From the NCBI GenBank assembly GCA_035447925.1, contig DAOTHY010000001.1, positions 201,004 through 265,003 of the forward strand: a stretch of 64,000 nucleotides of DNA, in the 5' to 3' direction. The position numbers and the translations under genes were made by a program. The notes under the pieces are model-generated. The model saw only the letters and a list, made by a program, of their open reading frames with translations, was not told the DNA's origin and made no database searches. Shown piece after piece: positions 15,451 to 46,184 of the stretch. The number at the start of each line of letters is the position of its first letter. Position 1 is the first letter of the stretch. This DNA comes from Thermotogota bacterium (GTDB taxonomy: Bacteria; Thermotogota; Thermotogae; MWEM01).

Positions 15451-15486
15451 AATAATCACGCTGCTTTTTCAGCGTGATTATTTTTT
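15451..15486 (+). terminator. Intrinsic terminator-like hairpin after the Fe-ADH gene
   Basis: AATAATCACGCTG-CTTTTT-CAGCGTGATTATT followed by T-run. Confidence 0.7.
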
Positions 15487-15500
15487 GGGGGGTGTTTGAT

Positions 15501-16199
15501 ATGGACATCAAAGAACAGCTGAAAGAAATGGTTGCAAAAGAAGTTGTGAAATACGTTGAATCAGATATGGTGATCGGGTTAGGGTCCGGATCAACAATGG
15601 TTTATGTGATTAATGAAATTGGAAAAGCGATTCGGGAAGGTCGGATGAAAGGAATCGTTGGTGTGCCTACCTCTTTTCAATCAGAGATTTTGGGAAGAGA
15701 AAATGGTATTCAAATCGTTGATTTTAATCAGATCGTTCGCATTGATCTGGCAATAGACGGTGCGGATGAAGTGGATCCCGAGAAGAGGCTTATAAAAGGA
15801 GGGGGAGGCGCTCATACCAGAGAAAAGTATATCGATTACTTTGCTGACCGGTTGATCATTGTAGCTGATGAAAGTAAACTGGTTCAGCGGTTGGGACAAC
15901 ATTTTGCAGTTCCCGTTGAGGTCTTACCGCAAACTTATCAATCAGTAAAAAAAAGAATGCTTCAAATGAACGGTGAACCACAACTAAGAATGGCCATAAA
16001 AAAAGCAGGGCCGGTGATTACTGATCAAGGAAATTTCATTCTGGATGTCAAGTTTCAAGTCATAGATGATCCGATTCAGCTGGAAAGTGAGCTTAATAAT
16101 ATTCCCGGTGTGATTGAAAACGGTATTTTCACAAAACAGGTAGAAGAAGTATTAATCGGAAGTTATTCAGACGGTAAAATGAAATTAATTCGGTTATAG
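15501..16199 (+). CDS. rpiA: Ribose-5-phosphate isomerase A
   Basis: GLGSGST, DGADEVD, IKGGGGA-x-x-REK, DESKLV, ITDQGN, GVIENGIF. Confidence 0.95.
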   Translation: MDIKEQLKEMVAKEVVKYVESDMVIGLGSGSTMVYVINEIGKAIREGRMKGIVGVPTSFQSEILGRENGIQIVDFNQIVRIDLAIDGADEVDPEKRLIKGGGGAHTREKYIDYFADRLIIVADESKLVQRLGQHFAVPVEVLPQTYQSVKKRMLQMNGEPQLRMAIKKAGPVITDQGNFILDVKFQVIDDPIQLESELNNIPGVIENGIFTKQVEEVLIGSYSDGKMKLIRL

Positions 16200-32795: not shown

Positions 32796-33623
32796 CTACT
32801 TTTGAATGGCTTTCACCAATCCTTTTTTTCTTTTTAAGAGCGTTGAAATAAAAAAAGAGGCTGAAAGCAGAAGGATAATCATGGCACCTGAAGGAATATT
32901 TAAATAGAAAGAGAGCCAAATGCCACTTATACTGATGATCATTCCAATCAATCCGGAAATGATCATTAATTTTTTTAGATTGAAAGTGAAGTGTTTGGCG
33001 ATTGCCGTTGGAGCTGTAAGCAATGCGATGACTAAAATAATTCCTACCACTCGAATCAAAACAACAATACTCAAGGCAATCAGTAAAAACATAAAGTATT
33101 CCATGAAACAAGTGTTCATGCCGATGATAAAAGAGAACTCATCATCGAACAAATATGATAACCATCGGCTGAAAAATGCCACAATTACAAATACAGTAAA
33201 AACAGCTAAAGCGAATATGATGTACAAATCAAAACGTGTGACGGTTAAAATATCACCAAAGAGATAAGATGCCATATCAGGGGGGTATCCTGGTGAAAGA
33301 TAGATGAATAAAATTCCCAGGGCCATCCCACTTGACCAAAGTATGCCAATCAGAGTATCTGTATTGGTGTTGGTTTTTCTTTTAATGGTGGTGATTAACA
33401 GTGATGAGCCTACTGAGAAAAATATAGCACCTAAGATGGGTTCGAAACCCAACCAATAGCCTAAGCCGATACCTCCAAAAGCTGTGTGGGCAATACCACC
33501 ACTCATCATCACAAGCTTTTTTTCCACAACAATCGTCCCGATAATGCCACAAACGATACTTGCTATAATAGCTGTCATTAAAGCATTTTGCATGAATTGA
33601 TAATTTAAAATAGCTTCAATCAT
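32796..33623 (-). CDS. znuB: Zn/Mn ABC transporter permease
   Basis: IAHTAFGG, YLFGDIL, VVGIILVIALLTAP, PSGAMII. Confidence 0.9.
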   Translation of the reverse strand: MIEAILNYQFMQNALMTAIIASIVCGIIGTIVVEKKLVMMSGGIAHTAFGGIGLGYWLGFEPILGAIFFSVGSSLLITTIKRKTNTNTDTLIGILWSSGMALGILFIYLSPGYPPDMASYLFGDILTVTRFDLYIIFALAVFTVFVIVAFFSRWLSYLFDDEFSFIIGMNTCFMEYFMFLLIALSIVVLIRVVGIILVIALLTAPTAIAKHFTFNLKKLMIISGLIGMIISISGIWLSFYLNIPSGAMIILLLSASFFISTLLKRKKGLVKAIQK

Positions 33624-34398
33624 GATAAATCTCCTTATCCTCTTTAAAAACTCTATGTGGTATGCCATGAGCAATGAGATCCACGGGACATCCGAATGTA
33701 TCGTCTATGATCCCCTGTGTTAATTGATCAGTGCCGTGATAATGAATTTTTCTGTTTAAACACGCAACTGTATCAAAATAAGAAGAAATAGCCCCTATGT
33801 CGTGAGTGACGATGATGATAGTTATTTCAGGTACAAGATGATGAAGAATTTGATAAATCTGATTTTTTGTTTGTGTATCAATACTAGCAGTAGGTTCATC
33901 CAGTAATAGAATTTTGGGGTCTTTAACTAAGGCTCGACCAATAAGAACCTTTTGAAGCTGGCCTCCAGATAAATGACCAATTTGTCTGTCCTTTAAATCC
34001 AATAATCCCAATTGTTCTAATATTCCATGACTTTTTCGATAATTATCCATAGAGTATTTCTTAAAGGGAATCAAATGATTGTTTAATGTTCCTGTTAATA
34101 TAACTTCTTCTACTTTGATTGGAAATAATTTGTCAAATTGTGCCGCTTGAGGAACATACCCAAGCCACCCTTTTTCTCTTGCTGCTTTTGCTTCTTCTCC
34201 AAAAATGGAGATCTCTCCGGAATCTATTTTAATCAAACCACAGATGACTTTTAAAAGTGTAGTTTTCCCGCCCCCATTAGGACCAATTATTGCCGTCATT
34301 TCCGATGCTGGGAAATTGACTGAAATATCTGAAAGGACCTGCTTACTTCCGTAAGATACATTGACTTGATTTAATGCGATGGCAATGTTATTGTCCAT
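33616..34398 (-). CDS. znuC: Zn/Mn ABC transporter ATP-binding protein
   Basis: GPNGGGKTT, LGYVPQ, LSGGQLQK, LLDEPT, VTHD. Confidence 0.9.
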   Translation of the reverse strand: MDNNIAIALNQVNVSYGSKQVLSDISVNFPASEMTAIIGPNGGGKTTLLKVICGLIKIDSGEISIFGEEAKAAREKGWLGYVPQAAQFDKLFPIKVEEVILTGTLNNHLIPFKKYSMDNYRKSHGILEQLGLLDLKDRQIGHLSGGQLQKVLIGRALVKDPKILLLDEPTASIDTQTKNQIYQILHHLVPEITIIIVTHDIGAISSYFDTVACLNRKIHYHGTDQLTQGIIDDTFGCPVDLIAHGIPHRVFKEDKEIYHD

Positions 34399-35239
34399 CC
34401 TGTTCTCCCAAAACATCTTTGAAAATCTGCCCCATACTTAAAAGATTATTGATATAATCCGCTGACAAAGGATCCAGTTTCAAAGCTTTTCCGTTAATCT
34501 CATGGGCAAAAGAATCAGTTTGAGAACTGTCTATTTCCGCTTGATAGAAGATGACCTTATAGTTATTTTCTCTTGCAAAAGCTACCATTTCTGCAATTCT
34601 TTTAGGCGAGGCCTCTTTGCCGTTATCTTCCAATGCATACATATTCAAACCATAATCATCTGCAAAATATCCGAAAGAAGGATGATAACAAAAAAACCCC
34701 TTGTTTTCAATTTTAGAGAGGTTTTCATTCAAATGTTGATGTGTCATTGTTAGCTTGTTGATAAAGTTCTGGGCATTCTGACGATAATATAGATCATTTT
34801 CGGGATCTAATGAGCATAAATAATCTCGTATGACTTCCACCATTATCATGACTCTTTTAGGCGAGAGCCAAATATGAGGATCTCTTACATTTTCGTTAAA
34901 ATACCTCGGTTGATAAACCTTATCAACAGCCTCTTGCAATGAGACAAGTTTCACATGAGGAGCATTTTTTGCCAATTTCGGTAAAATATTGGATAATTCA
35001 GCGGGTACACCAATTGTGAAATAAACAGATGATCGTGAAAATTCAATAATTTGTTTTGCTGTTGGGGCGTAATTTGAAGGACTATAACCCGGAGGGATAA
35101 TCACCGTGATATCAACCAATTCCTTTCCAACCGCTTCCACAAAAGTTTTTTGTGGAATGATAGAGACAGATATTTTCATGATAGAGAAAATGCTTAATTC
35201 AAAAACTAAGAAAACAATCAGTAAGAAGGTTTTTTTCAT
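34388..35239 (-). CDS. znuA: Zn ABC transporter substrate-binding protein
   Basis: Signal peptide, PPGYSPSNY, DPHIWLSP, YHPSFGYFADDYGL, LDPL. Confidence 0.88.
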   Translation of the reverse strand: MKKTFLLIVFLVFELSIFSIMKISVSIIPQKTFVEAVGKELVDITVIIPPGYSPSNYAPTAKQIIEFSRSSVYFTIGVPAELSNILPKLAKNAPHVKLVSLQEAVDKVYQPRYFNENVRDPHIWLSPKRVMIMVEVIRDYLCSLDPENDLYYRQNAQNFINKLTMTHQHLNENLSKIENKGFFCYHPSFGYFADDYGLNMYALEDNGKEASPKRIAEMVAFARENNYKVIFYQAEIDSSQTDSFAHEINGKALKLDPLSADYINNLLSMGQIFKDVLGEQDGQ

Positions 35240-35240
35240 C

Positions 35241-35630
35241 TTATTCTCCTTTACAATTTTCACACAAACCTGTGAAATAAAAAATATGTGAATGGATATT
35301 GAAATGGTACTTTTTCAATACCATTTCTTCTAATGACTGCGCCATACACTGATCAAATACCTGAATATTCTGGCACTTCTCGCAGTACAGAAAATGCTTG
35401 AATTTATCTTTGCAAAAAAAGAAACGAACGTTTTTCCCGAAAGAAGCAGAATCCACATAAGATCTTTTTTCTAAGTAATCAATTGCCCGATAAATAGTGG
35501 ACAAATTCATTTTCGCATCAAAAGAGATAGAGGACGCTTCTAATGTCCTTTTGATTTGTTCTGCTGTTAGAGGTTTTTTAGCATGACTTAAAATTTCAAA
35601 AATCCGCTGACGGTTTTTTGTGAATCTCAT
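35241..35630 (-). CDS. zur: Fur family regulator, Zur-like
   Basis: TKNRQRI, LSTIYRAI, HFLYCEKC, GLCENC; first gene of the Zn-ABC operon. Confidence 0.82.
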   Translation of the reverse strand: MRFTKNRQRIFEILSHAKKPLTAEQIKRTLEASSISFDAKMNLSTIYRAIDYLEKRSYVDSASFGKNVRFFFCKDKFKHFLYCEKCQNIQVFDQCMAQSLEEMVLKKYHFNIHSHIFYFTGLCENCKGE

Positions 35631-35643
35631 AAGATCACCTATT

Positions 35644-35658
35644 TGCAAACGATTCGCA
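35644..35658. promoter_or_regulatory. Candidate Fur-family (Zur) operator, imperfect 7-1-7 palindrome
   Basis: TGCAAAC-G-ATTCGCA between an extended -10 (TGGTAGAAT, minus strand) and the zur SD. Confidence 0.5.
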
Positions 35659-35690: not shown

Positions 35691-35723
35691 AAAAAAAAAG
35701 GGTCCATACTAAATGACCCTTTT
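35691..35723 (-). terminator. Intrinsic terminator ending the sulfo-TK operon
   Basis: Minus strand AAAAGGGTCAT-loop-ATGGACCC followed by T9. Confidence 0.75.
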
Positions 35724-35769: not shown

Positions 35770-36243
35770 TTATTTGAAATTCTCATCTTCTATGGTTTGA
35801 ACCTGTTCAAATGCATTGGTTAAGAATTCTCGTTTAAATTCAAACCCTTCAAGAAATTCAGTGTTCAGCCATCTATCCAACATATCTATTGCTTCTTGAG
35901 GAGCCAGTTTCCAGCCTCCCATGGTTAATATATTGGCATTATTGATGACTTTACACATCTTTGCCGCATAAGATCCCTCTACAACAGCTGCATAAACGCC
36001 TTTGAATTTGTTGGCTACAATCGCCATGCCCATACCGGTACCACAACACAATAACCCCTTTTCAAATTCCCCTGATTGCACCTTTTTGGCAACCTTTGAG
36101 GCTACTTCATAATACGCTTGAAAATCGTCCGAATTTTGCATGCCTAAATCTTCAATCTCATATCCCTTTTCAATCAAATGTTCTTTTAAGGCTTCTTTTA
36201 AAGAAAATCCCGATTTATCTGCACCCATGACAATCTTTTTCAT
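35770..36243 (-). CDS. RpiB/LacA/LacB family isomerase, probable sulfoerythrose isomerase (SqwI-like)
   Basis: CGTGMG and ANKFKG retained; DH changed to DK, HN to IN, no C-terminal RH motif; lies in the sulfosugar cluster. Confidence 0.8.
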   Translation of the reverse strand: MKKIVMGADKSGFSLKEALKEHLIEKGYEIEDLGMQNSDDFQAYYEVASKVAKKVQSGEFEKGLLCCGTGMGMAIVANKFKGVYAAVVEGSYAAKMCKVINNANILTMGGWKLAPQEAIDMLDRWLNTEFLEGFEFKREFLTNAFEQVQTIEDENFK

Positions 36244-38273
36244 TCTATATCCTCCTTCATTCTTATCAACATTTCTCGGTAAGGTGATTTCATTCGAACA
36301 AAAACGGGTGGTTTTCCCAATGGCGATGTTATTTTATAAGTGCCACCACTATAGTGTTGTTCGTCCCAAAGATAAATCCATTCATCTTCAGGAAGAAAGA
36401 CATTGTGTTCATTTTCTCCCGCTTTCAAAACGGGACAAATTAACAAGTCTCTTCCTAAAAGGTATTCGGTTTGAATATTTTTCGTTTTATCAGTTGGATA
36501 ATGGGTATACAAGCTTCGCATAAAAGGCAAACCGGTTGTTGCATTTTCTTCGTTCAGAATTTGGAAGTATGGTTTTAATCGAACGTGAATAGCAACCATT
36601 TTTCTAAAATGTTCCAACGTATCCTCATCATAATCAAATTGGCAGTTTAAATCGGGCCTATTTCCTTCATGTGTTCTCATGACTGGCGTATAGGCGGCCA
36701 TTTCAATCCATCTCATCAACAGTTCTTTAGATCTGGTTATCTTCCCCAATTGATTGTCAAAGGTTGTATATCCACCGATATCTGAATGACTAATACCGAA
36801 TCCGCTAAGCCCGAGAGACAATGATGCTGGTATAACTGAAGGCAACCCATCATCCATACTCCAATCCACCATTTGATCTCCGTTCCACATTAAAGTTGAA
36901 TATCTCTGTGTGAATGAATAACCCGCACGTGTAAAGAAGACTGCTTCCCCTAATTTTCCCGACTCTTCAATTGCTTCCCTATTTAATTTAGCCCACAAAA
37001 CCGGAAATTGATTGTGAATTAAAGTCGGATCTTCGCCGGAAAAAAGTTTGCAATCACAGGGAAGGTATTCACCAAAATCAGCCATCCAGCCAGACAATCC
37101 AATTGCAAGCATATTGTTTTTAATAATACCTTTTAACCATTGATAGGCTTCAGGATTTGTTAAATCAACAATCGCCGCAGGAAAGGTAGTGACTTCAACC
37201 AAATATTCTTCATTATTCTGATTTTTTAGAAGATAATGCTTTTCACTCGCCTCACGGTATAAAGCACCTTCTATGGCTAAGAAAGGATTGATGTATCCCA
37301 TCGTACGAATACCACGCTTGTTTAGATTTTTGATTGTTTCAGGAAGATCGGGGTACATCGCTTCTTCAAATTGCCAGTTCCACATGAGCTGTTTTCCAAA
37401 AGAAGTGATGCGTTTTCCCTCCCAGTCTTGAATCCAAATAGCAGAAAGCTTGATCCCTTTATTTCTTGCCAGTTCAACTTTGGGTTGAACCACTTCGGTG
37501 CCACCTTGAAGACCCAATATCAAGCCATCGAAGATCCAATCAGGTAATTTTGGTTGTAATCCGAAATATTTCGCCTGTGTTTGGATCACTTCCTTAAAAT
37601 CTTCTCCGATGCCGATGATGATTTCTTCAGGAACTGACCAGCATTCAATTTGTGAAAAATCATCGTGAGTAAAGTCAAACTCCATGTAACTTGAATGGTT
37701 CACATGACAGAAAAAATTCGAAGTCGTAATGAATGATGGCTGCGGAAAATAGGTGGTGTACCAATCGCCGCCGGCTTTGTCAAACTTATCAGCAAAAAAG
37801 GTCAGTAACTCTTTCTTATTTCTACCTACCCCTTGTTCACTAACCCAAAGAGGTAATTTTGAGCCTTTGAGATTGAGTTTGGAGTATTGTTCGCCACCTC
37901 CGTAAATGCCTTCATTTCTATTCGATATAAAACGACACCAAAAACGATTATATCTGATGGCTTGATTATCAATTTTCATTTTCAGGATTTGATTGTCTTG
38001 AACCTGCAAAGTAACAAAAACCTCTATCGATTCAAAGAAAAATCGGATAACGGCAGTTTCAGGTGTTTTTTCAACGATTTGGAAATTTACCAGCGGATAC
38101 TTTGATTCCAACTCGTTGGTGAACTCAAAATTTCCATGGTACATTTCATAGGTTGAACAACCCTTTCCGATAAAAAAGGCTGGATTTTCTGATGAATGAC
38201 AGAGTATTTCTATTTCTCCAAAACTGATTTGAAGTCCTTGCTTGTTTTCATTTATTTTTAGCATTTCCCTCAA
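36240..38273 (-). CDS. yihQ: GH31 sulfoquinovosidase (YihQ family)
   Basis: LWVSEQGVGRNK, GLQGG, WIQDW, GWMADFGEYLP (nucleophile), WNGDQ (acid/base), HSDIGGYT, RTHEGNRP; closely parallels E. coli YihQ. Confidence 0.92.
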   Translation of the reverse strand: MREMLKINENKQGLQISFGEIEILCHSSENPAFFIGKGCSTYEMYHGNFEFTNELESKYPLVNFQIVEKTPETAVIRFFFESIEVFVTLQVQDNQILKMKIDNQAIRYNRFWCRFISNRNEGIYGGGEQYSKLNLKGSKLPLWVSEQGVGRNKKELLTFFADKFDKAGGDWYTTYFPQPSFITTSNFFCHVNHSSYMEFDFTHDDFSQIECWSVPEEIIIGIGEDFKEVIQTQAKYFGLQPKLPDWIFDGLILGLQGGTEVVQPKVELARNKGIKLSAIWIQDWEGKRITSFGKQLMWNWQFEEAMYPDLPETIKNLNKRGIRTMGYINPFLAIEGALYREASEKHYLLKNQNNEEYLVEVTTFPAAIVDLTNPEAYQWLKGIIKNNMLAIGLSGWMADFGEYLPCDCKLFSGEDPTLIHNQFPVLWAKLNREAIEESGKLGEAVFFTRAGYSFTQRYSTLMWNGDQMVDWSMDDGLPSVIPASLSLGLSGFGISHSDIGGYTTFDNQLGKITRSKELLMRWIEMAAYTPVMRTHEGNRPDLNCQFDYDEDTLEHFRKMVAIHVRLKPYFQILNEENATTGLPFMRSLYTHYPTDKTKNIQTEYLLGRDLLICPVLKAGENEHNVFLPEDEWIYLWDEQHYSGGTYKITSPLGKPPVFVRMKSPYREMLIRMKEDIE

Positions 38274-39211
38274 CCTTTTCTCTTAAGAACTTTTTTGGCG
38301 GCTAACACGATGTCATCAGACGTCATTTGGTATTTTTTTAAAAGGAAATCTGTCAGCCCTACTTCACCAAAATGATCTTTGATTCCGATTCTTTCAAGGG
38401 GTACGGGACAATGTTCTGCTAAGACTTCAGAGACGGCACTTCCCCAGCCGTTAATAATGCTGTGATTTTCAGCGGTTACGATAGCACCAGTTTCTTCAGC
38501 GGCTTTAACTATGGTTTCCCAATCTACTGGTTTTAAGGTATGCATATTTAAAACCCTCGCATGTATCCCTTCTTTTTCTAGAATCTGGGCAGCCACAAGC
38601 GTGTTTTTAATCATTATTCCGCTGCAGATAAGGGTAACATCCGTTCCAGGAAGGATTTCATATATTTTTCCCAGTTCAAATTCCGTTCCATCAGGAAAGT
38701 ATCGGTCATTTGATTTACGAGCTAATCGCATATAAACAGGACTATCAACGGTTGCTATTTGGGGTAAAAGTGATCTTAACTGAGTCCCGTCAGCTGGTTC
38801 AACAACGATCATATTGGGAATTGAACGGATAAGCCCAGCATCTTCAACACTCATGTGTGTTCCACCGTTTAACTCAGCGGTTACCCCGGGATCTGTTCCT
38901 CCTATTTTTGCGTTTAATTTTGCATAAGCAATTGAAATGGCAATTTGATCAAGTACCCTTCTAGTGGCAAACGGTGTAAAAGAATGTGCAAAGGGAATTT
39001 TACCCGTAACAGCAAGTCCGGCTGAAATACCAATCATATTTGCTTCAGCTACACCTACATCGATGAAGCGATCCGGAAATCTTTCTTTGAATGAAGTGGT
39101 TCCAGTAGCTTTCATTAAATCAGCTTCAAGAACAACGATTCGCTCATCACCTTCAGCTAAATCCAATAGTATCTCAGCGTAGATTTGTCTTAATTCCTTT
39201 TCGTTTGACAT
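38270..39211 (-). CDS. Transketolase, C-terminal subunit (SqwH-like)
   Basis: DVGVAEANM, FATRR, GGTHMS, PVYMRLAR, AENHS. Confidence 0.92.
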   Translation of the reverse strand: MSNEKELRQIYAEILLDLAEGDERIVVLEADLMKATGTTSFKERFPDRFIDVGVAEANMIGISAGLAVTGKIPFAHSFTPFATRRVLDQIAISIAYAKLNAKIGGTDPGVTAELNGGTHMSVEDAGLIRSIPNMIVVEPADGTQLRSLLPQIATVDSPVYMRLARKSNDRYFPDGTEFELGKIYEILPGTDVTLICSGIMIKNTLVAAQILEKEGIHARVLNMHTLKPVDWETIVKAAEETGAIVTAENHSIINGWGSAVSEVLAEHCPVPLERIGIKDHFGEVGLTDFLLKKYQMTSDDIVLAAKKVLKRKG

Positions 39212-39212
39212 A

Positions 39213-40046
39213 TTAAACACCTGCTTCCTTTAATTGAGCAACTGCTTTTTTCCATTCTTCGCTTGAGACTTTCATATTATGGCAACTTATTTGATTTTCA
39301 GCAAAATAGGCGCCTTTTCCCTTAATGGTGTTTAAGATAATCATCGTTGGTTTTTCTTTGCTTAATTTTGATTGGTCCAGTGCATCGCATATCTGATTAA
39401 AATCATGTCCGTCTATTGAAAAAACATTCCAGCCGAAGGCTTTCCATTTATCCGATAGCGGTTCAAGTGAATTGATTTCATCAGTTGTGCCATCAATTTG
39501 CATTCTATTGTAATCTTGCATAACGGTTAGATTGTTTATTTTTTTTGAAGAAGCAAACATGGCAGCTTCCCAAATTTGTCCTTCCTGACTTTCTCCATCA
39601 CCGATGATACAATAGACCCTTGATGGCTTTTTATCAATCTTTTTGCCTAAGGCAATTCCAATTGCGGCTGATAATCCTTGTCCTAATGATCCAGCTGTCA
39701 TATCGATTCCCGGAGTGCGTAGCCTATCGCAATGTGAAGGTAAGTTTGTATTCGGTTGATTTAAAGTGTCGGTCCATGATTTTGGAAAAAACCCCTTGTC
39801 TGCTAAAACCGAATATAAAGCGGGCCCACCGTGTCCTTTGGACAGAACGAAATGGTCTCTATCTCCCCATTTAGGGTCTTCTGATTTAACTTGCATGGTT
39901 CTGTAATACAAAGCCACCAGGGCTTCAATGATGGATAAGGAACCACCGATGTGGCCAACACCAAGTTTGCCTATTTGTTCGATGGTCAAACAACGTATTT
40001 CATTCGCTTTTTTTTCCAGTTCCTTCAATTCTGTTTGATTCAACAT
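39213..40046 (-). CDS. Transketolase, N-terminal TPP-binding subunit (SqwG-like)
   Basis: GHIGGSLS, DHFVLSKGH, GSLGQG, GDGESQEG...N TPP motif. Confidence 0.92.
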   Translation of the reverse strand: MLNQTELKELEKKANEIRCLTIEQIGKLGVGHIGGSLSIIEALVALYYRTMQVKSEDPKWGDRDHFVLSKGHGGPALYSVLADKGFFPKSWTDTLNQPNTNLPSHCDRLRTPGIDMTAGSLGQGLSAAIGIALGKKIDKKPSRVYCIIGDGESQEGQIWEAAMFASSKKINNLTVMQDYNRMQIDGTTDEINSLEPLSDKWKAFGWNVFSIDGHDFNQICDALDQSKLSKEKPTMIILNTIKGKGAYFAENQISCHNMKVSSEEWKKAVAQLKEAGV

Positions 40047-40056
40047 ATTCACCTCT

Positions 40057-41172
40057 TTAGTAGATTTGATTTAACAGGTTCACTAACTCGTTTTGCTGAT
40101 ATTTTTTGGGATTGAGTTGTGATATGGGAGCCGATAGTGTGATTTGAGCAATCCTTTCTAAATCCTCTCTTTTCACTCCAATTTGACTAAGGGTCGTTGG
40201 TGCATTGACATTTTTCATGATTTCCGCAATTTTGTTTGAAAACTGTTGAACCGTTTCGTAATTCAAATGACGGATTAAAATATCCATGTTTGGCTTATCA
40301 CTATCGTAATTGTCTTTGATGATTTTTGGCAATGCCAATGCACAAGCAAAACCATGTTCCAAGCCATATTCATTGGTTAGAGGAAAACTCAGTGCGTGTA
40401 GAATGGTTGTCCGTGTTTGTGCAAACGATATTCCGGCAAGAAGACTGGCGTAAAGCAGCTGTTCTCTGCCTTCATAATCCTTTGGAGAAACGTATGTTTT
40501 TTCTATGTTTAGCATGATTAGCTTCATTGCTTCCATTGAAAATAATTTTGACATAGGTTGGGAAGAATCCGCCCAATAGGCTTCAATAGCATGAGTAAAA
40601 GCGTCAAGAGAAGTGGATGCGGTCACTCTTGGCGGCATGGAAAGTGTCATCATCGGATCGAGAATTGCATGATCTGGCCAGAAATATTCGGTGACTAACG
40701 GTTTTTTTTGACCTCTTTCATGATCTGTATAAACGCCAACATTTGTCACTTCACTGCCTGTTCCGGATGTGGTTGGAATGGCAATTAACTGTGTTGTTCT
40801 TCCTTTTAATATTTTTCCGTTAAACAGAAATTCCTGTAAAGTACCATCGGTATCAATGAGACAGGAAATGGCTTTGGCCGTGTCAATGGCACTGCCTCCC
40901 CCAAGTCCGATCACTGTTTTTATCTTTCTTTCCTTGGCGTAGCGGACTCCATTATTGACTGTTGAACAAGAGGGGTTTGGCTCAACCTCACAAAAATTAA
41001 AGATTGAGTCTTTTGGTTTTAATACCTGTTTAATTTGATCAACTAGTCCAACCTTTTTTAGGACAGGATCACTAACAATCAGAATAGGAGATTCGATATG
41101 AAGTGTATTTAAATGTAGGATCTTGTTTTTCCCAAAAAAGATCTCTACCGGTAAATAAAAACGATAGTCCAT
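40057..41172 (-). CDS. Iron-containing alcohol dehydrogenase, probable sulfoacetaldehyde reductase (SqwF-like)
   Basis: VEPNP, GGGSAID, PTTSGTGSE, DAFTHAIE, HALS, HG. Confidence 0.85.
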   Translation of the reverse strand: MDYRFYLPVEIFFGKNKILHLNTLHIESPILIVSDPVLKKVGLVDQIKQVLKPKDSIFNFCEVEPNPSCSTVNNGVRYAKERKIKTVIGLGGGSAIDTAKAISCLIDTDGTLQEFLFNGKILKGRTTQLIAIPTTSGTGSEVTNVGVYTDHERGQKKPLVTEYFWPDHAILDPMMTLSMPPRVTASTSLDAFTHAIEAYWADSSQPMSKLFSMEAMKLIMLNIEKTYVSPKDYEGREQLLYASLLAGISFAQTRTTILHALSFPLTNEYGLEHGFACALALPKIIKDNYDSDKPNMDILIRHLNYETVQQFSNKIAEIMKNVNAPTTLSQIGVKREDLERIAQITLSAPISQLNPKKYQQNELVNLLNQIY

Positions 41173-41200: not shown

Positions 41201-42109
41201 TTATTTTTTATCTGCTTTTTTGTTCTTCTGGACTAATATTATCCCCATTGTTGAGAGTAATACAATAATCATTCCGATTATTTGCAGTCCTGATAATAAT
41301 TCACCCAAAAGGAAGAATCCAATGAACGAGGCAAAAACAGGCATGAGTAATAGGGTGATTCTTACAATCCAAACGGGTAAAATTCTTAAATTATAGTAAT
41401 ATAGAATATAAATTAAAGTCTGCATGATCCCGGTGTAAATCAAAGAAACGATTAACATTGGATGCTCACTAATGGTTTTTTGATCAATTTTACGTTCAAA
41501 TAGAATGAAAACAATCACAAAAATAGAAAATGTAATCAGATTATTGTAAAAAGCAACTGTTGAATCCCTTACTTTTACTCTTGGATCATTTTGAACAGAT
41601 TTAATGATAAATCCGTTCAAAGCAACAAAAAGGGCACTTAAGATGAAGAGGAAATCACCGATTCCATTGAGTTTGAATTTTGTAAAATCGATATTAATGA
41701 CCAATAGGGTGCCTAACAAGATGAAAAGCGTTAATACCCAATCTACTTTGGTAAATTTTTGCTTAAGCAAAAAGATTGAGATGAAATTGGTGAAAAGAAC
41801 ATCCGCTTTCAACAAAATAGCTGCATTTGAAGCTGTTGAAAGCTGTAAGCCCAAAAAGGCTGTAATATCCAGCGAAAATCCTAGAATTCCAATCAGAATC
41901 AATTTGGGCATTACGCTTCTGACTTCTATCAGATTTTTTTGATAACCTTTCAAAAAAATAAAAATGACTAAAAAAATCAAAGCTAAAAAACGTACTGTTA
42001 CACCAACAAAAATAGGAGACAGTTCTAACAGCGAAAACCGATTTACTACGTAAAAACTGGACCAAACAACATTGAGAATTAATAGTGAAAAAATGGATTT
42101 TGAACTCAT
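41201..42109 (-). CDS. DMT/EamA family transporter, candidate sulfonate exporter
   Basis: Ten hydrophobic segments in two EamA-like repeats; GDFLFILSA. Confidence 0.85.
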   Translation of the reverse strand: MSSKSIFSLLILNVVWSSFYVVNRFSLLELSPIFVGVTVRFLALIFLVIFIFLKGYQKNLIEVRSVMPKLILIGILGFSLDITAFLGLQLSTASNAAILLKADVLFTNFISIFLLKQKFTKVDWVLTLFILLGTLLVINIDFTKFKLNGIGDFLFILSALFVALNGFIIKSVQNDPRVKVRDSTVAFYNNLITFSIFVIVFILFERKIDQKTISEHPMLIVSLIYTGIMQTLIYILYYYNLRILPVWIVRITLLLMPVFASFIGFFLLGELLSGLQIIGMIIVLLSTMGIILVQKNKKADKK

Positions 42110-42115
42110 TTTATT

Positions 42116-43573
42116 TTAGATCAACTCATCTTTTAACTTCATGAGTTCCTTTTCATCCATATCTTTAACAGTTTGCCCTTTTCTATGTGCTGTCAGGTAA
42201 TCGATTAATTGTCTGTGATTTTTAGGATTGATTGGATATTTCAAAGCAGCCCATATTCCCAGTGCCATCAAGATGATGGGAACAAAGGCAATTATCAATC
42301 TAATCGTCAGCAAAACTGATTCTGGCTGAATCCTTTCAATCGATTTTTCAACCCCGTTTTCAATGATGATTTCGGGATTCAGATAGCCGGTTACACCTAA
42401 AAGGAATGTAACAAATGCGACTGCAATTCCTGAAGCAAATTTTCTTACAAACGTGATAATGCCGCTGAATGACCCCTCTCTTCTTTCTGAATATGCCAAT
42501 TCACCCACATCCGTGACATCGCCGAATAATGTGTGTGGAATAACAGCAGCTGCACTCACTCCAGAACCTATCAAAGCAGCTAAAATAATGATTACATATA
42601 ATGGCGCTGTAGAAGGAACGATAAAGATCAAAACACTGCCGATAGCCCATATGATCGCACCCACAATATATGCAATCGTTTTGCTTTTCTTTTTTGCGAT
42701 AAAGGCATAAAAGGGTATAAAAAGAATTTCAACGATCAACAGGACTCCCAAAACTAATGACAGATATCCAGGCTGTAAAACGTAATATTTCATGTAGTAA
42801 GCGAAAATCATTGATACAATGTCCATGCTTAGATAGGCAGCAAGAAACATCAACAACAAATAACGGAAGGATTTGATCTTAAACGGGTCAATAAACATCG
42901 CTCTGAAATTGATGGCCTTTTTCTGAGGTCTGAAATCTTCTCGTTCTTTTGTTGAAAAAAATACCCCGATCCATGGAAGAGAGAAAAGCAATCCGAACAC
43001 AATAGCCATGATGATATAGCCAGTTCTAAGATTTTCAAAGGAATTAACAATCAGCATCGGAAGAACAGCACAAATCAATGAAGAACCAAGTGAAAAAGCC
43101 AGTCGAATGGAATTTACAGATGTTCTTTCATTGTAGTCGAGAGAAATTTCTGCAGACATGGCCTGATAAGGAACCATTACTATTGTTACAACCGTGTTGA
43201 ACAATAAATAGGCAAATAAAACATAAATGAATTTTGATATTTGGGAATCAAACTGAACCGGATACCACAACATGAAAAATGAAATGAAAATCAGAATTAT
43301 TCCAGCTAAGAAGTAAGGTCTTCTTCTGCCGTATTTCGATTTGGTTCCGTCAGTAATCGTTCCCATGAAGGGATCAGTAACAGCATCCCAGATTTTTCCT
43401 ATCAGAAAGACCGGTGAAACATAGACCATATTTAGACCAATTACATCGGTTAAAAACAAGGCGAAGAAAAAATTAATGATATTAAATGCCCCGCCACCGA
43501 ATATATCTCCAGCACCAAAAAGCAGCTTAGTCTTTAGAGGGATTTTGTCATGTACTCCATTATGATTATCCAT
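42116..43573 (-). CDS. MFS glycoside-pentoside-hexuronide (GPH) symporter
   Basis: FGAGD, KIWDAVTDPFMG, GRRRPY, VPYQAM, DYNERT, REGSFSG. Confidence 0.9.
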   Translation of the reverse strand: MDNHNGVHDKIPLKTKLLFGAGDIFGGGAFNIINFFFALFLTDVIGLNMVYVSPVFLIGKIWDAVTDPFMGTITDGTKSKYGRRRPYFLAGIILIFISFFMLWYPVQFDSQISKFIYVLFAYLLFNTVVTIVMVPYQAMSAEISLDYNERTSVNSIRLAFSLGSSLICAVLPMLIVNSFENLRTGYIIMAIVFGLLFSLPWIGVFFSTKEREDFRPQKKAINFRAMFIDPFKIKSFRYLLLMFLAAYLSMDIVSMIFAYYMKYYVLQPGYLSLVLGVLLIVEILFIPFYAFIAKKKSKTIAYIVGAIIWAIGSVLIFIVPSTAPLYVIIILAALIGSGVSAAAVIPHTLFGDVTDVGELAYSERREGSFSGIITFVRKFASGIAVAFVTFLLGVTGYLNPEIIIENGVEKSIERIQPESVLLTIRLIIAFVPIILMALGIWAALKYPINPKNHRQLIDYLTAHRKGQTVKDMDEKELMKLKDELI

Positions 43574-43576
43574 ATT

Positions 43577-44893
43577 CTACCTCACAATCTCCCATTTGTT
43601 GATATGGGCTAAAATTTCAAAAGATTTTGTGTAATCACCATATACAACAGAGATATGGTGTGCGAATCCATTGTAAACAACTTTGTCAAGGAGTTCAGTT
43701 AATGGGAGGTCAAATCGTGCTTTCATATATGTGCCACGCAATTCTTTTTCCATTGGAAAGGCCTCACCTTTTTGCAGCAACAACCTTGTTTTTCCTCTTG
43801 CCGTATCTATTCGACAGAATGAAATGATTCCTGGCTTCATCACAAAATCTGCTGTTACGCCTTTTCCACCGGCATGATAAGAATCCAGCGAGCAATGACA
43901 AACCCCATCGGTCAAATTACAAGGAGCAACTCCGCAATGCCATAACAATGCAAAATTCTCTTTTAAGTCAACTTGAGAGAAATCCGCTAAAAATGGTGTT
44001 TGGGCACCTGCAGCTTGATGAGCAACCATACTCATGAGTCCTTCAACATCTCCTTCACAACCCAGTAAATATCCTTTAGATTGAAGATAAGACATTGAAG
44101 CACAAGGAGCAATACCAAATTCAGCTGCAAATTCAGGCCAGCATCGAATTGCTAAGGCATCTACATGATTGTTATCCAAAAAATGTTTGAATTTGACTGA
44201 TAATTCAGCTACTTTATAAAGCTGTTCTGAGTTGATTGCATTAACATCGAATAATTCAACGAGTTCTTGTTGAATTTGTTGAACTTCTAACTCTGGGGAG
44301 ATGGTATTGAATACTTCAGATAACTCATAATGATCAACGAGCATGCCGGTTTTTGAATAAGCGCCTAATTCATCAATTCCAACATTGAAAAAACCTTTGG
44401 CCCGATAACCCAAAATCCCTATGTGATAATCACTTAATGCCTTTTTCATTTTGATTGCCTTTAGCCAATTCTCATCCAACTCATCAGAGACAGAAACCCA
44501 AAAGGAATCTGTCCCGCCTTTGTAAAGATTGGAAGCGTTCAAATTAACGCCACACACCGAATTTAATCTTATTTTACCCCCGTTATATGGAAGTTCTGGA
44601 AGACCCCAGAGCAGTATTGGTTTTTGAACGCTCTTATTGATAATTAAAGCTAAATGCCCTAAATGAAAAGTACCACTGATGATTATAACAGCATCGACAT
44701 GTTGGCTCAATAACATTTCCGATGCCTGTTGTGCATCCTCGGGTTCAATAAGTGGCTCTTCAACAAATACAAACTCCAAGTCTTTTCTTTCTTTGTATTT
44801 TTTAATCATATTTCTGTATATTTCCCCTGCGGTTAGATAATCAAAAGTTTTTCTAACCAGACAAACCACACCAATTCTTACCAGATTCTTCAT
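43577..44893 (-). CDS. L-fucose/L-arabinose isomerase family protein, probable sulfoquinovose isomerase (SqvD-like)
   Basis: IRCWPEF, CEGDVEG, LWHCG, HHISVVYGD; AGGAGTGA SD. Confidence 0.85.
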   Translation of the reverse strand: MKNLVRIGVVCLVRKTFDYLTAGEIYRNMIKKYKERKDLEFVFVEEPLIEPEDAQQASEMLLSQHVDAVIIISGTFHLGHLALIINKSVQKPILLWGLPELPYNGGKIRLNSVCGVNLNASNLYKGGTDSFWVSVSDELDENWLKAIKMKKALSDYHIGILGYRAKGFFNVGIDELGAYSKTGMLVDHYELSEVFNTISPELEVQQIQQELVELFDVNAINSEQLYKVAELSVKFKHFLDNNHVDALAIRCWPEFAAEFGIAPCASMSYLQSKGYLLGCEGDVEGLMSMVAHQAAGAQTPFLADFSQVDLKENFALLWHCGVAPCNLTDGVCHCSLDSYHAGGKGVTADFVMKPGIISFCRIDTARGKTRLLLQKGEAFPMEKELRGTYMKARFDLPLTELLDKVVYNGFAHHISVVYGDYTKSFEILAHINKWEIVR

Positions 44894-44913
44894 TGAATCA
44901 CTCCTGTATTCTC

Positions 44914-46137
44914 TTATTTGTAAATTGCACCCGTATCGTAAAAAAGTCTTTCCAAAGCCAAAGCCAGAGGTCCGATTGCTTTGGTTTGGTATTCCAGGCA
45001 ACTGGTCACGATCTTTTTTTTCACCGAATCATCACAAAGCATTTCGCTGATTTTGTTGACCAATTGTTCCATTAACGTATTATATTTAAATAGCTCTCCA
45101 AAAAAAACAATTCTTTGAGGATCCAAAATTTTCATGAGATTGATAATACCGGTAGCCATATAGGCAATGTTTTCATCTATAGTCTTTTTGATGAAGGAAT
45201 CGCCTTTTTCATATGCATCAAAAATCATAGCCGTGTCAATATTCAAAGGCTCTTCTTGGCATAGTTCGTACAATATGGGCGTTTCTGTCTTTGAGAAGGC
45301 ATTTTTAACATATTGCTTCATACGTCTGGTGGAAACGACTGTTTCCAGACATCCTTTTTGACCACAGTTGCATAGGGGGCCATCGGGTTCTACAATGATA
45401 TGACCGATTTCCCCTGCTTGATTTTCCGAGCCATAAATCAGCCTTTTATTGATGACAATAGCAGCACCAATTCCGGGACCATGCTTGATAAAAACAAAAT
45501 CCTCAACTGTATCAATCTTTGAGCAATTAATTTCAGCAATTGCCAAAGCCCTAACGTTATTATCGACAATTACCGGTAGTTTGAGTGATTTTGTCAATAG
45601 TTCACGAATACTCACTTCGCTTTCCCATATCCCGTAAGCATCCACACTTTTTCCTTTTTGAGGATCAACTTTTCCAACTATTCCAACGCCGATACCCAAG
45701 ATGTTGCCTTTGGAAATATCGAGTTTCCAGAGAATGTCTTTGATTTGATCGACAATGATGTTCAGGAACACCTCCGGTGATACACTGGCATCTGTAATAA
45801 ATTCTTTGTTTGAAAGAATGTTTAAATTAAGATCTGAAATTGCTATGGTTGTCATATCTTTTTCAATGCTGATCCCTAAAACAAATTTGTGGCTTTTTTC
45901 AATTTCGATTAAGATTTTCTTCCTTCCTGCTTTACCATTTCTCTCTGCAAGACCAACTTCCTTAATAATGCCCTCATGAAGCATCTCATTGGAAATAATG
46001 GTAATTGCTCCAGCTGATAAACCTGAAATAGCCGCAATGTCCTTTCTGGACATCGGACCGTTTTCTCTGAGTATATTTAGCAGAACGGATCGATTGACTT
46101 TTTTGATGGAATTTAAATCCATTACCTTTTTCTTCAT
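44914..46137 (-). CDS. ROK family transcriptional regulator
   Basis: N-terminal HTH (MSRKDIAAISGLS), DNNVRALA, GPGIGA, GEIGH, CNCGQKGCLE. Confidence 0.92.
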   Translation of the reverse strand: MKKKVMDLNSIKKVNRSVLLNILRENGPMSRKDIAAISGLSAGAITIISNEMLHEGIIKEVGLAERNGKAGRKKILIEIEKSHKFVLGISIEKDMTTIAISDLNLNILSNKEFITDASVSPEVFLNIIVDQIKDILWKLDISKGNILGIGVGIVGKVDPQKGKSVDAYGIWESEVSIRELLTKSLKLPVIVDNNVRALAIAEINCSKIDTVEDFVFIKHGPGIGAAIVINKRLIYGSENQAGEIGHIIVEPDGPLCNCGQKGCLETVVSTRRMKQYVKNAFSKTETPILYELCQEEPLNIDTAMIFDAYEKGDSFIKKTIDENIAYMATGIINLMKILDPQRIVFFGELFKYNTLMEQLVNKISEMLCDDSVKKKIVTSCLEYQTKAIGPLALALERLFYDTGAIYK

Positions 46138-46184
46138 TTTCAAACACCACTTTATAATGATCTGTAAAAAGATAAATCAATTCT

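What the first reader, a model, noticed from the sequence alone, without database searches (positions are those of the whole stretch)
35770..36243. RpiB-family protein that has lost its phosphate-binding residues
Seen versus E. coli RpiB (recalled sequence): catalytic Cys in CGTG is kept, but H10 is K, H99 is I, R110 is W and the C-terminal R133-H134-R137 cluster is absent. A bona fide rpiA is present at 15501-16199, so R5P isomerase activity is covered. Inference: a non-phosphorylated substrate, consistent with an SqwI-type sulfoerythrose isomerase; this independently supports the sulfo-TK reading.
Basis: partly seen in the sequence, partly recalled or inferred. Interest (0 to 1): 0.55.

Follow-up and report, generated by a model that had tools for sequence, protein, structure and literature searches.

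The report
Sulfoerythrose isomerase (SqwI) of a sulfo-TK operon
This small gene is not a ribose-5-phosphate isomerase but a Thermotogota copy of SqwI, the already named but never directly assayed isomerase of the transketolase pathway for the plant sulfosugar sulfoquinovose. Its altered active-site residues fit a short, open-chain sulfonated sugar.

Summary
The 157-aa RpiB/LacAB-family protein (window 35770-36243, minus strand) keeps the isomerase core (D9, C67, T69, N101). Against E. coli RpiB it has H10->K, H99->I, R110->W, R133->F and H134->E. One detail was wrong: a basic residue survives at the R137 position (K137/R138).

These changes are not decay. They are conserved in 120 homologues (W111 in 120/120). 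The homologues form one clade (SH-aLRT 100), separate from canonical RpiB, LacA/B and DerI/EryI.

In 67 of 80 related loci the gene lies within 10 kb of a split transketolase. In 39 it lies directly behind it, as sqwI does in the archetype Clostridium sp. MSTE9 cluster. Here it ends an operon (ROK regulator, SqvD, GPH importer, EamA, Fe-ADH, SqwG, SqwH, YihQ) and overlaps the yihQ stop codon (ATGA).

All 29 Thermotogota genomes with this type also carry a canonical RpiB or, in this lineage only, RpiA.

SqwI and sulfo-TK in Thermotogae are published, and this scan has already met sulfo-TK clusters in at least 8 other genomes. This is a new member of a known kind. The added value is a residue-level rationale.

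The parts
35770..36243 (-). sqwI: 157-aa RpiB/LacAB-family isomerase, predicted 4-deoxy-4-sulfoerythrose to 4-deoxy-4-sulfoerythrulose isomerase
   Evidence: ORF and translation. PF02502 at 146 bits. Below the rpiB equivalog cut-off (119.8 < 138.65). AF2 model pLDDT 95.4, RpiB fold with TM 0.86-0.93. Clade-specific residues. Clade support SH-aLRT 100.
36251..36257 (-). Shine-Dalgarno AAGGAGG, 7 nt before the sqwI ATG and inside the end of yihQ
   Evidence: Read directly from the sequence.
36240..36243 (-). ATGA overlap of the sqwI start codon with the yihQ stop codon (translational coupling)
   Evidence: Sequence ...GAT ATA GAA TGA / ATG AAA AAG. ORF coordinates.
35691..35723 (-). Intrinsic-terminator-like hairpin AAAAGGGTC(10-nt loop)GACCCTTTT followed by a T run; it closes the operon
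   Evidence: Read from the sequence.
36240..38273 (-). yihQ-type GH31 sulfoquinovosidase
   Evidence: NCBIfam PRK10426 at 902 bits, cut-off 553. 45% identical to E. coli YihQ. Trp304 and Tyr508 equivalents are kept; Arg301 is Gln295.
38270..39220 (-). sqwH: transketolase pyrimidine-binding plus C-terminal half
   Evidence: PF02779 and PF02780.
39213..40052 (-). sqwG: transketolase thiamine-diphosphate-binding half
   Evidence: PF00456 at 175 bits.
40057..41172 (-). sqwF-like Fe-dependent alcohol dehydrogenase (sulfoacetaldehyde reductase candidate)
   Evidence: PF00465 and PF25137. NCBIfam SarD sulfoacetaldehyde reductase 236 bits, below its cut-off of 700.
41201..42109 (-). EamA/DMT transporter, candidate isethionate exporter
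   Evidence: PF00892. Conserved next to the cluster in 36/80 loci.
42116..43573 (-). GPH/MFS_2 sugar symporter, candidate sulfoquinovose or SQ-glycerol importer
   Evidence: PF13347 at 276 bits. TIGR00792.
43577..45001 (-). SqvD/SftI-type sulfoquinovose isomerase (the true start is probably the ATG about 36 codons in)
   Evidence: PF02952. NCBIfam SftI NF048012 at 201 bits, below its cut-off of 700, aligned from residue 46.
44914..46143 (-). ROK-family regulator, first gene of the operon
   Evidence: PF00480 plus an HTH domain.
15474..16199 (+). rpiA, the genome's actual ribose-5-phosphate isomerase (ATG at 15501)
   Evidence: NF001924 at 263 bits (cut-off 192) and TIGR00021 at 256 bits. It is the only PF06026 match in the genome.

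Best explanation

Pathway steps, as described in the literature:
1. YihQ releases sulfoquinovose.
2. SqvD isomerises it to sulfofructose.
3. The split transketolase SqwGH removes C1-C2, leaving 4-deoxy-4-sulfoerythrose (SE).
4. SqwI converts SE to 4-deoxy-4-sulfoerythrulose, so that SqwGH can remove a second C2 unit.
5. The remaining sulfoacetaldehyde is reduced by the Fe-ADH and exported as isethionate.

Inferred mechanism: the RpiB cis-enediolate chemistry is retained, with Cys67 as base, Thr69 as proton shuttle, and Asp9 and Asn101. The substrate site is rebuilt for a C4, open-chain, singly charged sulfonate.
- The two histidines assigned to furanose ring opening and substrate binding (His99, His134) are gone.
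- Three arginines are replaced by bulky neutral residues: R83->Y84, R110->W111, R133->F134.
- Two cationic residues remain: K10 at the N-cap of helix 1, and K137/R138.

What is shown: sequence, fold, clade, context, and the co-occurrence pattern with canonical Rpi genes. What is inferred: the substrate, and which residues bind the sulfonate.
For: Context
- The gene is the last gene of an operon: ROK, SqvD, GPH, EamA, Fe-ADH, SqwG, SqwH, YihQ, SqwI.
- It overlaps yihQ by ATGA and is followed by a terminator.

Related loci
- 67/80 related loci hold a split transketolase. Among loci with at least 8 kb on both sides the figure is 42/46.
- In 39/80 the transketolase C-half lies directly upstream. 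This is the sqwG-sqwH-sqwI order of the archetype MSTE9 cluster (IMG 2524472430-432; PMC11659671).

Clade
- 43 SqwI-like proteins form one branch (SH-aLRT 100, stem 1.26), apart from 21 Thermotogota RpiB, E. coli RpiB, LacA/B and DerI/EryI.
- In 151 Thermotogota genomes the matches are bimodal: at least 58% identity and 208 bits, or at most 47% identity and 114 bits.

Residues
- Catalytic D9, C67, T69 and N101 are invariant.
- Counts at the changed positions among 43 clade members: K10 40/43; I/V/L100 43/43; W111 43/43; F/L134 40/43; R/K137 43/43.
- The 21 Thermotogota RpiB have H, H, R, R, H and R at these positions.
- The roles of these residues in RpiB come from PMC4783025.
- DerI/EryI are tetrose-4-phosphate isomerases that pass NF051858. 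They also lack His99 and His134.

Separate R5P isomerase
- 29/29 SqwI-bearing Thermotogota genomes have a canonical RpiB (19) or RpiA (10) as well.
- Five cultured Firmicutes with SqwI also have extra RpiB-like paralogues.

Precedent
- Replacement of a phosphate Arg-Arg-Ser triad by a Lys-Arg-Asn sulfonate triad in SF kinase, and the Arg-Trp-Tyr sulfonate pocket in sulfoquinovosidase (PMC8006165).
Against: - SqwI activity has never been measured directly. SE isomerises spontaneously, and the 2022 review calls SqwI 'putative' (PMC9594981).
- I could not obtain the archetype MSTE9 SqwI sequence, so orthology rests on clade and synteny, not on a direct alignment (one search found no named MSTE9 member).
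- Four full-flank loci carry the gene without a nearby transketolase (L017, L053, L081, L082).
- Residue-to-ligand assignments come from alignment to RpiB structures, not from a model of the dimer with ligand. The active site of RpiB lies at a subunit interface, and only a monomer was modelled.
- The protein just reaches NCBIfam's RpiB 'subfamily' cut-off (135.1 against 135).
Confidence: 0.85

Rival explanations
1. It is a working ribose-5-phosphate isomerase B placed in the operon to process the xylulose 5-phosphate made by the transketolase. It would link Xu5P/Ru5P to R5P so that glyceraldehyde 3-phosphate can be regenerated.
For: The sulfo-TK pathway makes two Xu5P per sugar, so pentose-phosphate enzymes are needed (PMC9594981). 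The protein has the RpiB fold. It reaches the NCBIfam RpiB subfamily cut-off by 0.1 bit. Public databases name it RpiB.
Against: It falls below the rpiB equivalog cut-off (119.8 < 138.65). Clade-wide, it lacks His10, His99, Arg110, Arg133 and His134, which are invariant in 21/21 Thermotogota RpiB. H99N lowers kcat 26-fold in E. coli, and the equivalent H102N abolishes activity in Leishmania (PMC4783025). Every SqwI-bearing genome checked keeps a separate RpiB or RpiA. This genome has a full-scoring rpiA.
Confidence: 0.04
2. It is an isomerase for a different substrate of the pathway. Candidates are sulfoquinovose/sulfofructose (a second SQ isomerase, by analogy with the allose-6-P and galactose-6-P activities of the family) or erythrose 4-phosphate/erythrulose 4-phosphate, as for DerI/EryI.
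For: The family includes hexose-6-phosphate and tetrose-4-phosphate isomerases. 43/80 loci showed no SqvD-type gene within 10 kb with the window's SqvD as query. SqwI has never been assayed directly.
Against: An SqvD/SftI-type SQ isomerase is encoded in the same operon. Sulfoquinovose is a pyranose and would need ring opening, yet both histidines tied to ring opening are absent. The DerI model scores only 104 bits against a cut-off of 240. DerI/EryI keep Arg110 and have Ser10 and Asn137, a different pattern. The tight linkage is to the transketolase, whose product is SE.
Confidence: 0.08
3. It is a catalytically dispensable or decaying RpiB paralogue, carried along because SE isomerises spontaneously.
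For: Spontaneous SE to SEu isomerisation is reported (PMC9594981). A remnant cluster (L017) keeps the gene without the transketolase.
Against: The reading frame is intact. The catalytic Asp, Cys, Thr and Asn are invariant, and 28 columns are invariant across 31 sequences from several phyla. The AF2 model is confident. [quoted passage not shown]
Confidence: 0.03

Closest known systems
SqwI, putative 4-deoxy-4-sulfoerythrose isomerase of the sulfo-TK pathway (Clostridium sp. MSTE9; Liu et al. 2021 as reviewed in PMC9594981, PMC12890257; Faecalicatena, PMC11659671; rumen Caproiciproducens/Sphaerochaetaceae, PMC13219744)
   Same: Same Pfam family (PF02502). Same pathway gene set (YihQ, SqvD, SqwGH, SqwF-type ADH, exporter). 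Clade relatives lie directly downstream of sqwH, as in the archetype. The pathway is already reported in Thermotogae.
   Different: Here yihQ is inserted between sqwH and sqwI and is translationally coupled to sqwI. The exporter is an EamA/DMT protein. No DUF4867 (SqvB) gene was found in the genome. Direct identity to the MSTE9 protein could not be measured.
Ribose-5-phosphate isomerase B (E. coli RpiB/AlsB 1NN4/2VVR; T. maritima TM1080 1O1X; C. thermocellum 3HE8)
   Same: Same fold (TM 0.84-0.93, 33-36% identity). Same catalytic Asp9, Cys66, Thr68 and Asn100.
   Different: It lacks His10, Arg83, His99, Arg110, Arg133 and His134, and the DYP motif. It is below the rpiB equivalog cut-off. It forms a separate clade. 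It is always accompanied by a canonical Rpi.
D-erythrulose-4-phosphate isomerase DerI/EryI (NCBIfam NF051858; Rhizobium erythritol and tetrose loci)
   Same: An RpiB-fold isomerase for an acyclic C4 sugar with a terminal anion. It likewise lacks His10, His99, Arg133 and His134.
   Different: DerI/EryI keep Arg110 and Arg83 and have Ser10 and Asn137. The window protein scores 104 bits against a cut-off of 240. They form a separate clade (SH-aLRT 98) and sit beside a triose-phosphate-isomerase paralogue, not a transketolase.
Galactose-6-phosphate isomerase LacA/LacB
   Same: Same Pfam family.
   Different: A heteromeric enzyme for a hexose 6-phosphate. The scores are far below the cut-offs (89.6 against 164; 77.6 against 234).

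Membership tests
SqwI (sulfo-TK sulfoerythrose isomerase) | PF02502 (LacAB_rpiB) domain and RpiB fold | tested here: met
   146 bits, cut-off 24.7. AF2 pLDDT 95.4. Foldseek TM 0.86-0.93 to RpiB structures.
SqwI (sulfo-TK sulfoerythrose isomerase) | Encoded in a sulfo-TK cluster with the split SF transketolase SqwGH | tested here: met
   Same operon in the window. 67/80 related loci and 42/46 full-flank loci hold the split transketolase. 39/80 have sqwH directly upstream.
SqwI (sulfo-TK sulfoerythrose isomerase) | Orthology to the archetype protein of Clostridium sp. MSTE9 (IMG 2524472432) | tested here: inconclusive
   The archetype sequence could not be obtained. Support is indirect: one well-supported clade whose Clostridia and Oscillospiraceae members have the archetype gene order.
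SqwI (sulfo-TK sulfoerythrose isomerase) | Catalyses SE to SEu isomerisation | not testable with these tools
   Not measured directly for any SqwI, according to PMC9594981.
Ribose-5-phosphate isomerase B (RpiB) | Reaches the NCBIfam rpiB equivalog score (TIGR01120) | tested here: not met
   119.8 bits against a cut-off of 138.65. The broader subfamily model PRK05571 is reached by only 0.1 bit.
Ribose-5-phosphate isomerase B (RpiB) | Phosphate-anchoring residues His10, Arg110, Arg133, Arg137 (E. coli numbering) | tested here: not met
   K10, W111, F134 and K137/R138. Three of the four are changed, and only the last stays basic. Residue roles from PMC4783025.
Ribose-5-phosphate isomerase B (RpiB) | Histidines for furanose ring opening and substrate binding (His99, His134) | tested here: not met
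   I100 and E135. In the SqwI clade these are I/V/L in 43/43 and E, P or gap. In RpiB they are His in 21/21.
Ribose-5-phosphate isomerase B (RpiB) | Serves as the genome's R5P isomerase | tested here: not met
   A full-scoring rpiA is present. All 29 SqwI-bearing Thermotogota genomes have another Rpi. This is comparative evidence, not an assay.
D-erythrulose-4-phosphate isomerase DerI/EryI | Reaches NCBIfam NF051858 | tested here: not met
   104.3 bits against a cut-off of 240. Two Rhizobium references score 256-257 bits and form a separate clade.
Galactose-6-phosphate isomerase LacA/LacB | Reaches the LacA or LacB equivalog models | tested here: not met
   89.6 against 164 (LacA) and 77.6 against 234 (LacB).

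The most novel reading that the evidence does not exclude
The SqwI clade carries a dedicated sulfonate pocket built from K10/S11 at a helix N-cap, the invariant W111, Y84, and R/K137 from the partner subunit. This would be convergent with the Arg-Trp-Tyr pocket of sulfoquinovosidase and would exclude ribose 5-phosphate. If so, it explains why every SqwI genome keeps a separate Rpi. It also shows that two lineages of the RpiB fold (SqwI and DerI/EryI) each lack the ring-opening histidines and act on acyclic tetroses. It would give the first residue-level diagnostic for an enzyme that has never been assayed directly. Databases currently name this enzyme RpiB.
Probability: 0.55. Interest if true: 0.4.

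Novelty: new member of a known kind. Interest (0 to 1): 0.3.

Why it matters
[quoted passage not shown] SqwI is the one step of the sulfo-TK route whose activity has not been shown directly.

The clade-wide signature found here is K10, I/V100, W111, F/L134 and R/K137, with the catalytic Cys, Thr and Asn kept. It has three uses:
- It gives a concrete, testable picture of how an RpiB fold was retuned from a doubly charged, ring-forming pentose phosphate to a singly charged, open-chain C4 sulfonate.
- It offers a simple way to stop these genes being annotated as rpiB.
- It points to a lineage (RpiA plus SqwI, no RpiB) where the question 'can SqwI do RpiB's job?' has apparently been answered by evolution.

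It does not reveal a new pathway or a new protein family.

Tried and rejected
- I looked for the archetype MSTE9 SqwI sequence through cluster member names. No member carried that name, so no direct alignment to the 'characterised' protein was possible. The original paper (Liu et al. 2021) is not in the library.
- I searched plasmids for SqwI-type genes. None was found; the best hit was 44% identical and all hits were RpiB, LacB or DerI types. This search was useful only as a source of reference sequences.
- I considered and rejected the housekeeping RpiB, LacAB and DerI/EryI readings, on model scores, residues and the tree.
- I considered a pseudo-enzyme and rejected it, because the catalytic residues are invariant and the frame is intact across phyla.
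- The consensus terminator scan missed the hairpin after the gene because its loop is 10 nt. I read the hairpin by eye instead.
- Pocket geometry could not be examined.
- The basal branching order among SqwI, RpiB and DerI is unresolved (open forks), so I make no claim about which lineage SqwI arose from.

Full report
**1. What is there**

Window 35770-36243 on the minus strand is an intact ATG-started ORF of 157 aa.
- It matches Pfam PF02502 (LacAB_rpiB) at 146 bits.
- In NCBIfam it reaches the broad RpiB 'subfamily' model by 0.1 bit (135.1 against 135).
- It fails the rpiB equivalog (119.8 against 138.65), the DerI equivalog (104 against 240), and the LacA and LacB models.
- An AlphaFold2 model built on 31 homologues is confident (pLDDT 95.4).
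- The model superposes on solved RpiB structures at TM 0.84-0.93 with 33-36% identity. No closer solved structure exists.

**2.

I aligned the protein to E. coli RpiB, using the PDB chains 2vvr/1nn4 and the K-12 gene b4090 fetched as L003.
- D9, C66 (C67 here), T68 (T69) and N100 (N101) are kept.
- H10 is K10, H99 is I100, R110 is W111, R133 is F134, and H134 is E135 or a gap.
It aligns with K137/R138, and a basic residue is conserved there.

Further RpiB hallmarks are also changed: R83 to Y84, and the D of the DYP motif to A43.

According to PMC4783025:
- His10/11, Arg113, Arg137 and Arg141 (Leishmania/Mtb numbering; E. coli H10, R110, R133, R137) anchor the phosphate.
- His99/102 is proposed to protonate the ring oxygen during furanose opening. 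H99N lowers kcat 26-fold in E. coli.
- His134/138 contributes to substrate binding or ring opening.

**3. Not decay, but a conserved subfamily**

Counts among 120 database homologues of 53-90% identity:

| Position (window numbering) | Residue | Count |
|---|---|---|
| 10 | K/R | 114/120 |
| 11 | S | 114/120 |
| 67-70 | C-G-T-G | 120/120 |
| 100 | I/V/L | 120/120 |
| 101 | N | 120/120 |
| 111 | W | 120/120 |
| R137 position | R/K | 118/120 |

I then compared 43 such proteins with 21 canonical Thermotogota RpiB, E. coli RpiB, L. lactis LacA/LacB and two Rhizobium DerI/EryI proteins. The two DerI/EryI proteins pass NF051858.
- The 43 proteins form one branch with SH-aLRT 100 and a long stem of 1.26 substitutions per site.
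- The 21 RpiB have H10, H99, R110 and H134 in 21/21, and R133 in 20/21.
- In a survey of 151 Thermotogota genomes, matches to the query are cleanly bimodal: at least 58% identity and 208 bits in 29 genomes, and at most 47% identity and 114 bits for everything else.

**4. Context**

The gene is the last of a co-directional operon:
1. ROK regulator
2. SqvD/SftI-type isomerase
3. GPH symporter
4. EamA transporter
5. Fe-ADH
6. Transketolase N-half
7. Transketolase C-half
8. YihQ-type GH31
9. This gene

Its ATG overlaps the yihQ stop codon (ATGA). AAGGAGG lies 7 nt upstream, and a hairpin plus T-run follows at 35691-35723. A divergent ABC importer lies upstream of the operon.

Figures for 80 related loci from species-representative genomes:
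- 67 contain the split transketolase.
- 42 of the 46 loci with at least 8 kb on both sides contain it.
- In 39 the transketolase C-half ends within 250 nt upstream on the same strand. That is the sqwG-sqwH-sqwI order given for the archetype Clostridium sp. MSTE9 cluster (PMC11659671).

The loci come from Thermotogota, Clostridia, Halanaerobiales, Spirochaetes, Anaerolineales and Planctomycetota. The exceptions still sit in sulfosugar contexts:
- L081: SqwI, Fe-ADH, ROK, SqvD, YihQ, GPH, thiamin pyrophosphokinase.
- L017: a remnant of ABC transporter, GPH, short EamA, SqwI and LacI.

**5. Is R5P isomerase covered elsewhere?**

Yes.
- The window's rpiA (15474/15501-16199) scores 263 bits against the RpiA equivalog (cut-off 192) and is the only PF06026 match in the genome.
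- The gene under study is the only PF02502 match in the genome, which is 91% complete.
- Across Thermotogota, 19 SqwI-bearing genomes have a second, canonical RpiB. The other 10 have no RpiB but do have RpiA. These 10 belong to the window's genus and two neighbouring genera, and include a one-contig 4.0-Mb genome.
- RpiA above the family cut-off occurs nowhere else in the phylum.
- Ten of the 'second' copies were fetched, and all carry the canonical residues.
- Five cultured Firmicutes with an SqwI-type gene also have additional RpiB-like paralogues.

So the SqwI type is never the sole candidate R5P isomerase. This is what one expects if it cannot do that job. The genomes are related to one another, so this is a pattern and not a statistical test.

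**6. Mechanism**

Shown: the enediolate-chemistry residues are retained, and the substrate-end residues are replaced in a conserved way.

Inferred:
- SE (CHO-CHOH-CHOH-CH2-SO3-) has no 4-OH and cannot cyclise, so ring-opening histidines are unnecessary. The DerI/EryI enzymes act on acyclic tetrose 4-phosphates and likewise have Ser at both histidine positions.
- The sulfonate carries one charge and sits two atoms closer to C2 than the phosphate of R5P does. Fewer cationic ligands and a shorter pocket are therefore expected.
- K10/S11 lie at the N-cap of helix 1 (residues 10-25 in the model), and a basic residue is kept at position 137.
- W111, Y84 and F/L134 replace arginines. They could fill the distal pocket and donate N-H or O-H hydrogen bonds.

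Comparable phosphate-to-sulfonate remodelling is documented (PMC8006165): Arg-Arg-Ser to Lys-Arg-Asn in SF kinase, and the Arg-Trp-Tyr pocket in sulfoquinovosidase.

**7. Comparison with what is known**

- SqwI is a named component of the sulfo-TK pathway.
- It is assigned to PF02502 and described as 'putative', because spontaneous SE isomerisation hampered direct assays (PMC9594981).
- The pathway is reported in Clostridia, Spirochaetes and Thermotogae (PMC12890257).
- sqwI is highly transcribed during SQ degradation in rumen bacteria (PMC13219744).
- I found no paper in the library that discusses SqwI's active-site residues, and no solved structure.
- NCBIfam has models for SftI and SarD but none for SqwI. 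Public names for clade members are all 'RpiB' or 'RpiB/LacA/LacB family'.
- Earlier notes of this scan record sulfo-TK clusters in at least 8 other genomes, including one with the same yihQ-sqwI ATGA coupling.

**8. Verdict**

- The gene is a new member of a known kind.
- Interest is modest. The value lies in a residue-level, testable rationale for an unassayed enzyme, a practical annotation signature, and the RpiA-for-RpiB replacement in this lineage.

Noticed in passing
window 15474-16199 (+), and genomes G008-G010, G013-G015, G017-G019: Among 151 Thermotogota genomes, RpiA above the Pfam cut-off occurs only in the window's genus and two neighbouring genera. Those same genomes lack a canonical RpiB, which is otherwise near-universal in the phylum. 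This looks like a lineage-specific replacement of RpiB by RpiA. The origin of the rpiA gene was not traced.
   Followed up: partly
window 36240-38273 (-): The YihQ-type sulfoquinovosidase has Gln295 where E. coli YihQ has Arg301 of the Arg-Trp-Tyr sulfonate triad (KRVMW becomes KQLMW). Trp304, Tyr508, Gln262, Gln288 and both catalytic Asp equivalents are kept. Identity is 45%. An earlier scan note (e1-931033) describes a large Gln-bearing branch of this family.
   Followed up: partly
whole genome G000: No DUF4867 (SqvB, proposed SQ mutarotase or ring-opening helper) was found in the 91%-complete genome, although most published sulfo-TK clusters have one. The search had no positive control, so absence is not shown.
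   Followed up: partly
window 43577-45001 (-): The SqvD/SftI-type isomerase scores only 201 bits against NCBIfam SftI (cut-off 700). Across related loci, two classes of hit appear with it as query (about 50-79% and about 23-28% identity). This suggests two divergent SQ isomerase types in sulfo-TK clusters.
   Followed up: no
L081:9998-18482: A Clostridiales cluster has SqwI, Fe-ADH, ROK, SqvD-like, YihQ and GPH, but no transketolase within 10 kb. It ends with a thiamin pyrophosphokinase gene, which hints that a transketolase encoded elsewhere is used.
   Followed up: partly
L017:4653-11484: A Fervidobacterium sp. MAG carries a remnant: ABC importer, GPH, a shortened EamA (244 aa), SqwI and LacI. 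It lacks the transketolase, YihQ and ADH, whereas F. islandicum (L015) has the full cluster.
   Followed up: partly
window 35770-36243 (-), annotation: The protein reaches NCBIfam's RpiB subfamily model PRK05571 by 0.1 bit (135.1 against 135). All public names of clade members are RpiB-type, so automatic annotation will mislabel this enzyme.
   Followed up: yes
G155:C27:54088-54546 (Diplocloster hominis genome): A paralogue is intermediate between the SqwI type and RpiB (43% identity, 134 bits) in a genome with nine PF02502-family matches. It was not examined.
   Followed up: no
window 33616-35648 (-): Directly downstream of the operon lie a Fur/Zur-family regulator, a metal-binding-protein-like lipoprotein, an ABC ATPase and a permease. 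This looks like a ZnuABC-type metal uptake operon, unrelated to the finding. Only the regulator was run against family models.
   Followed up: no
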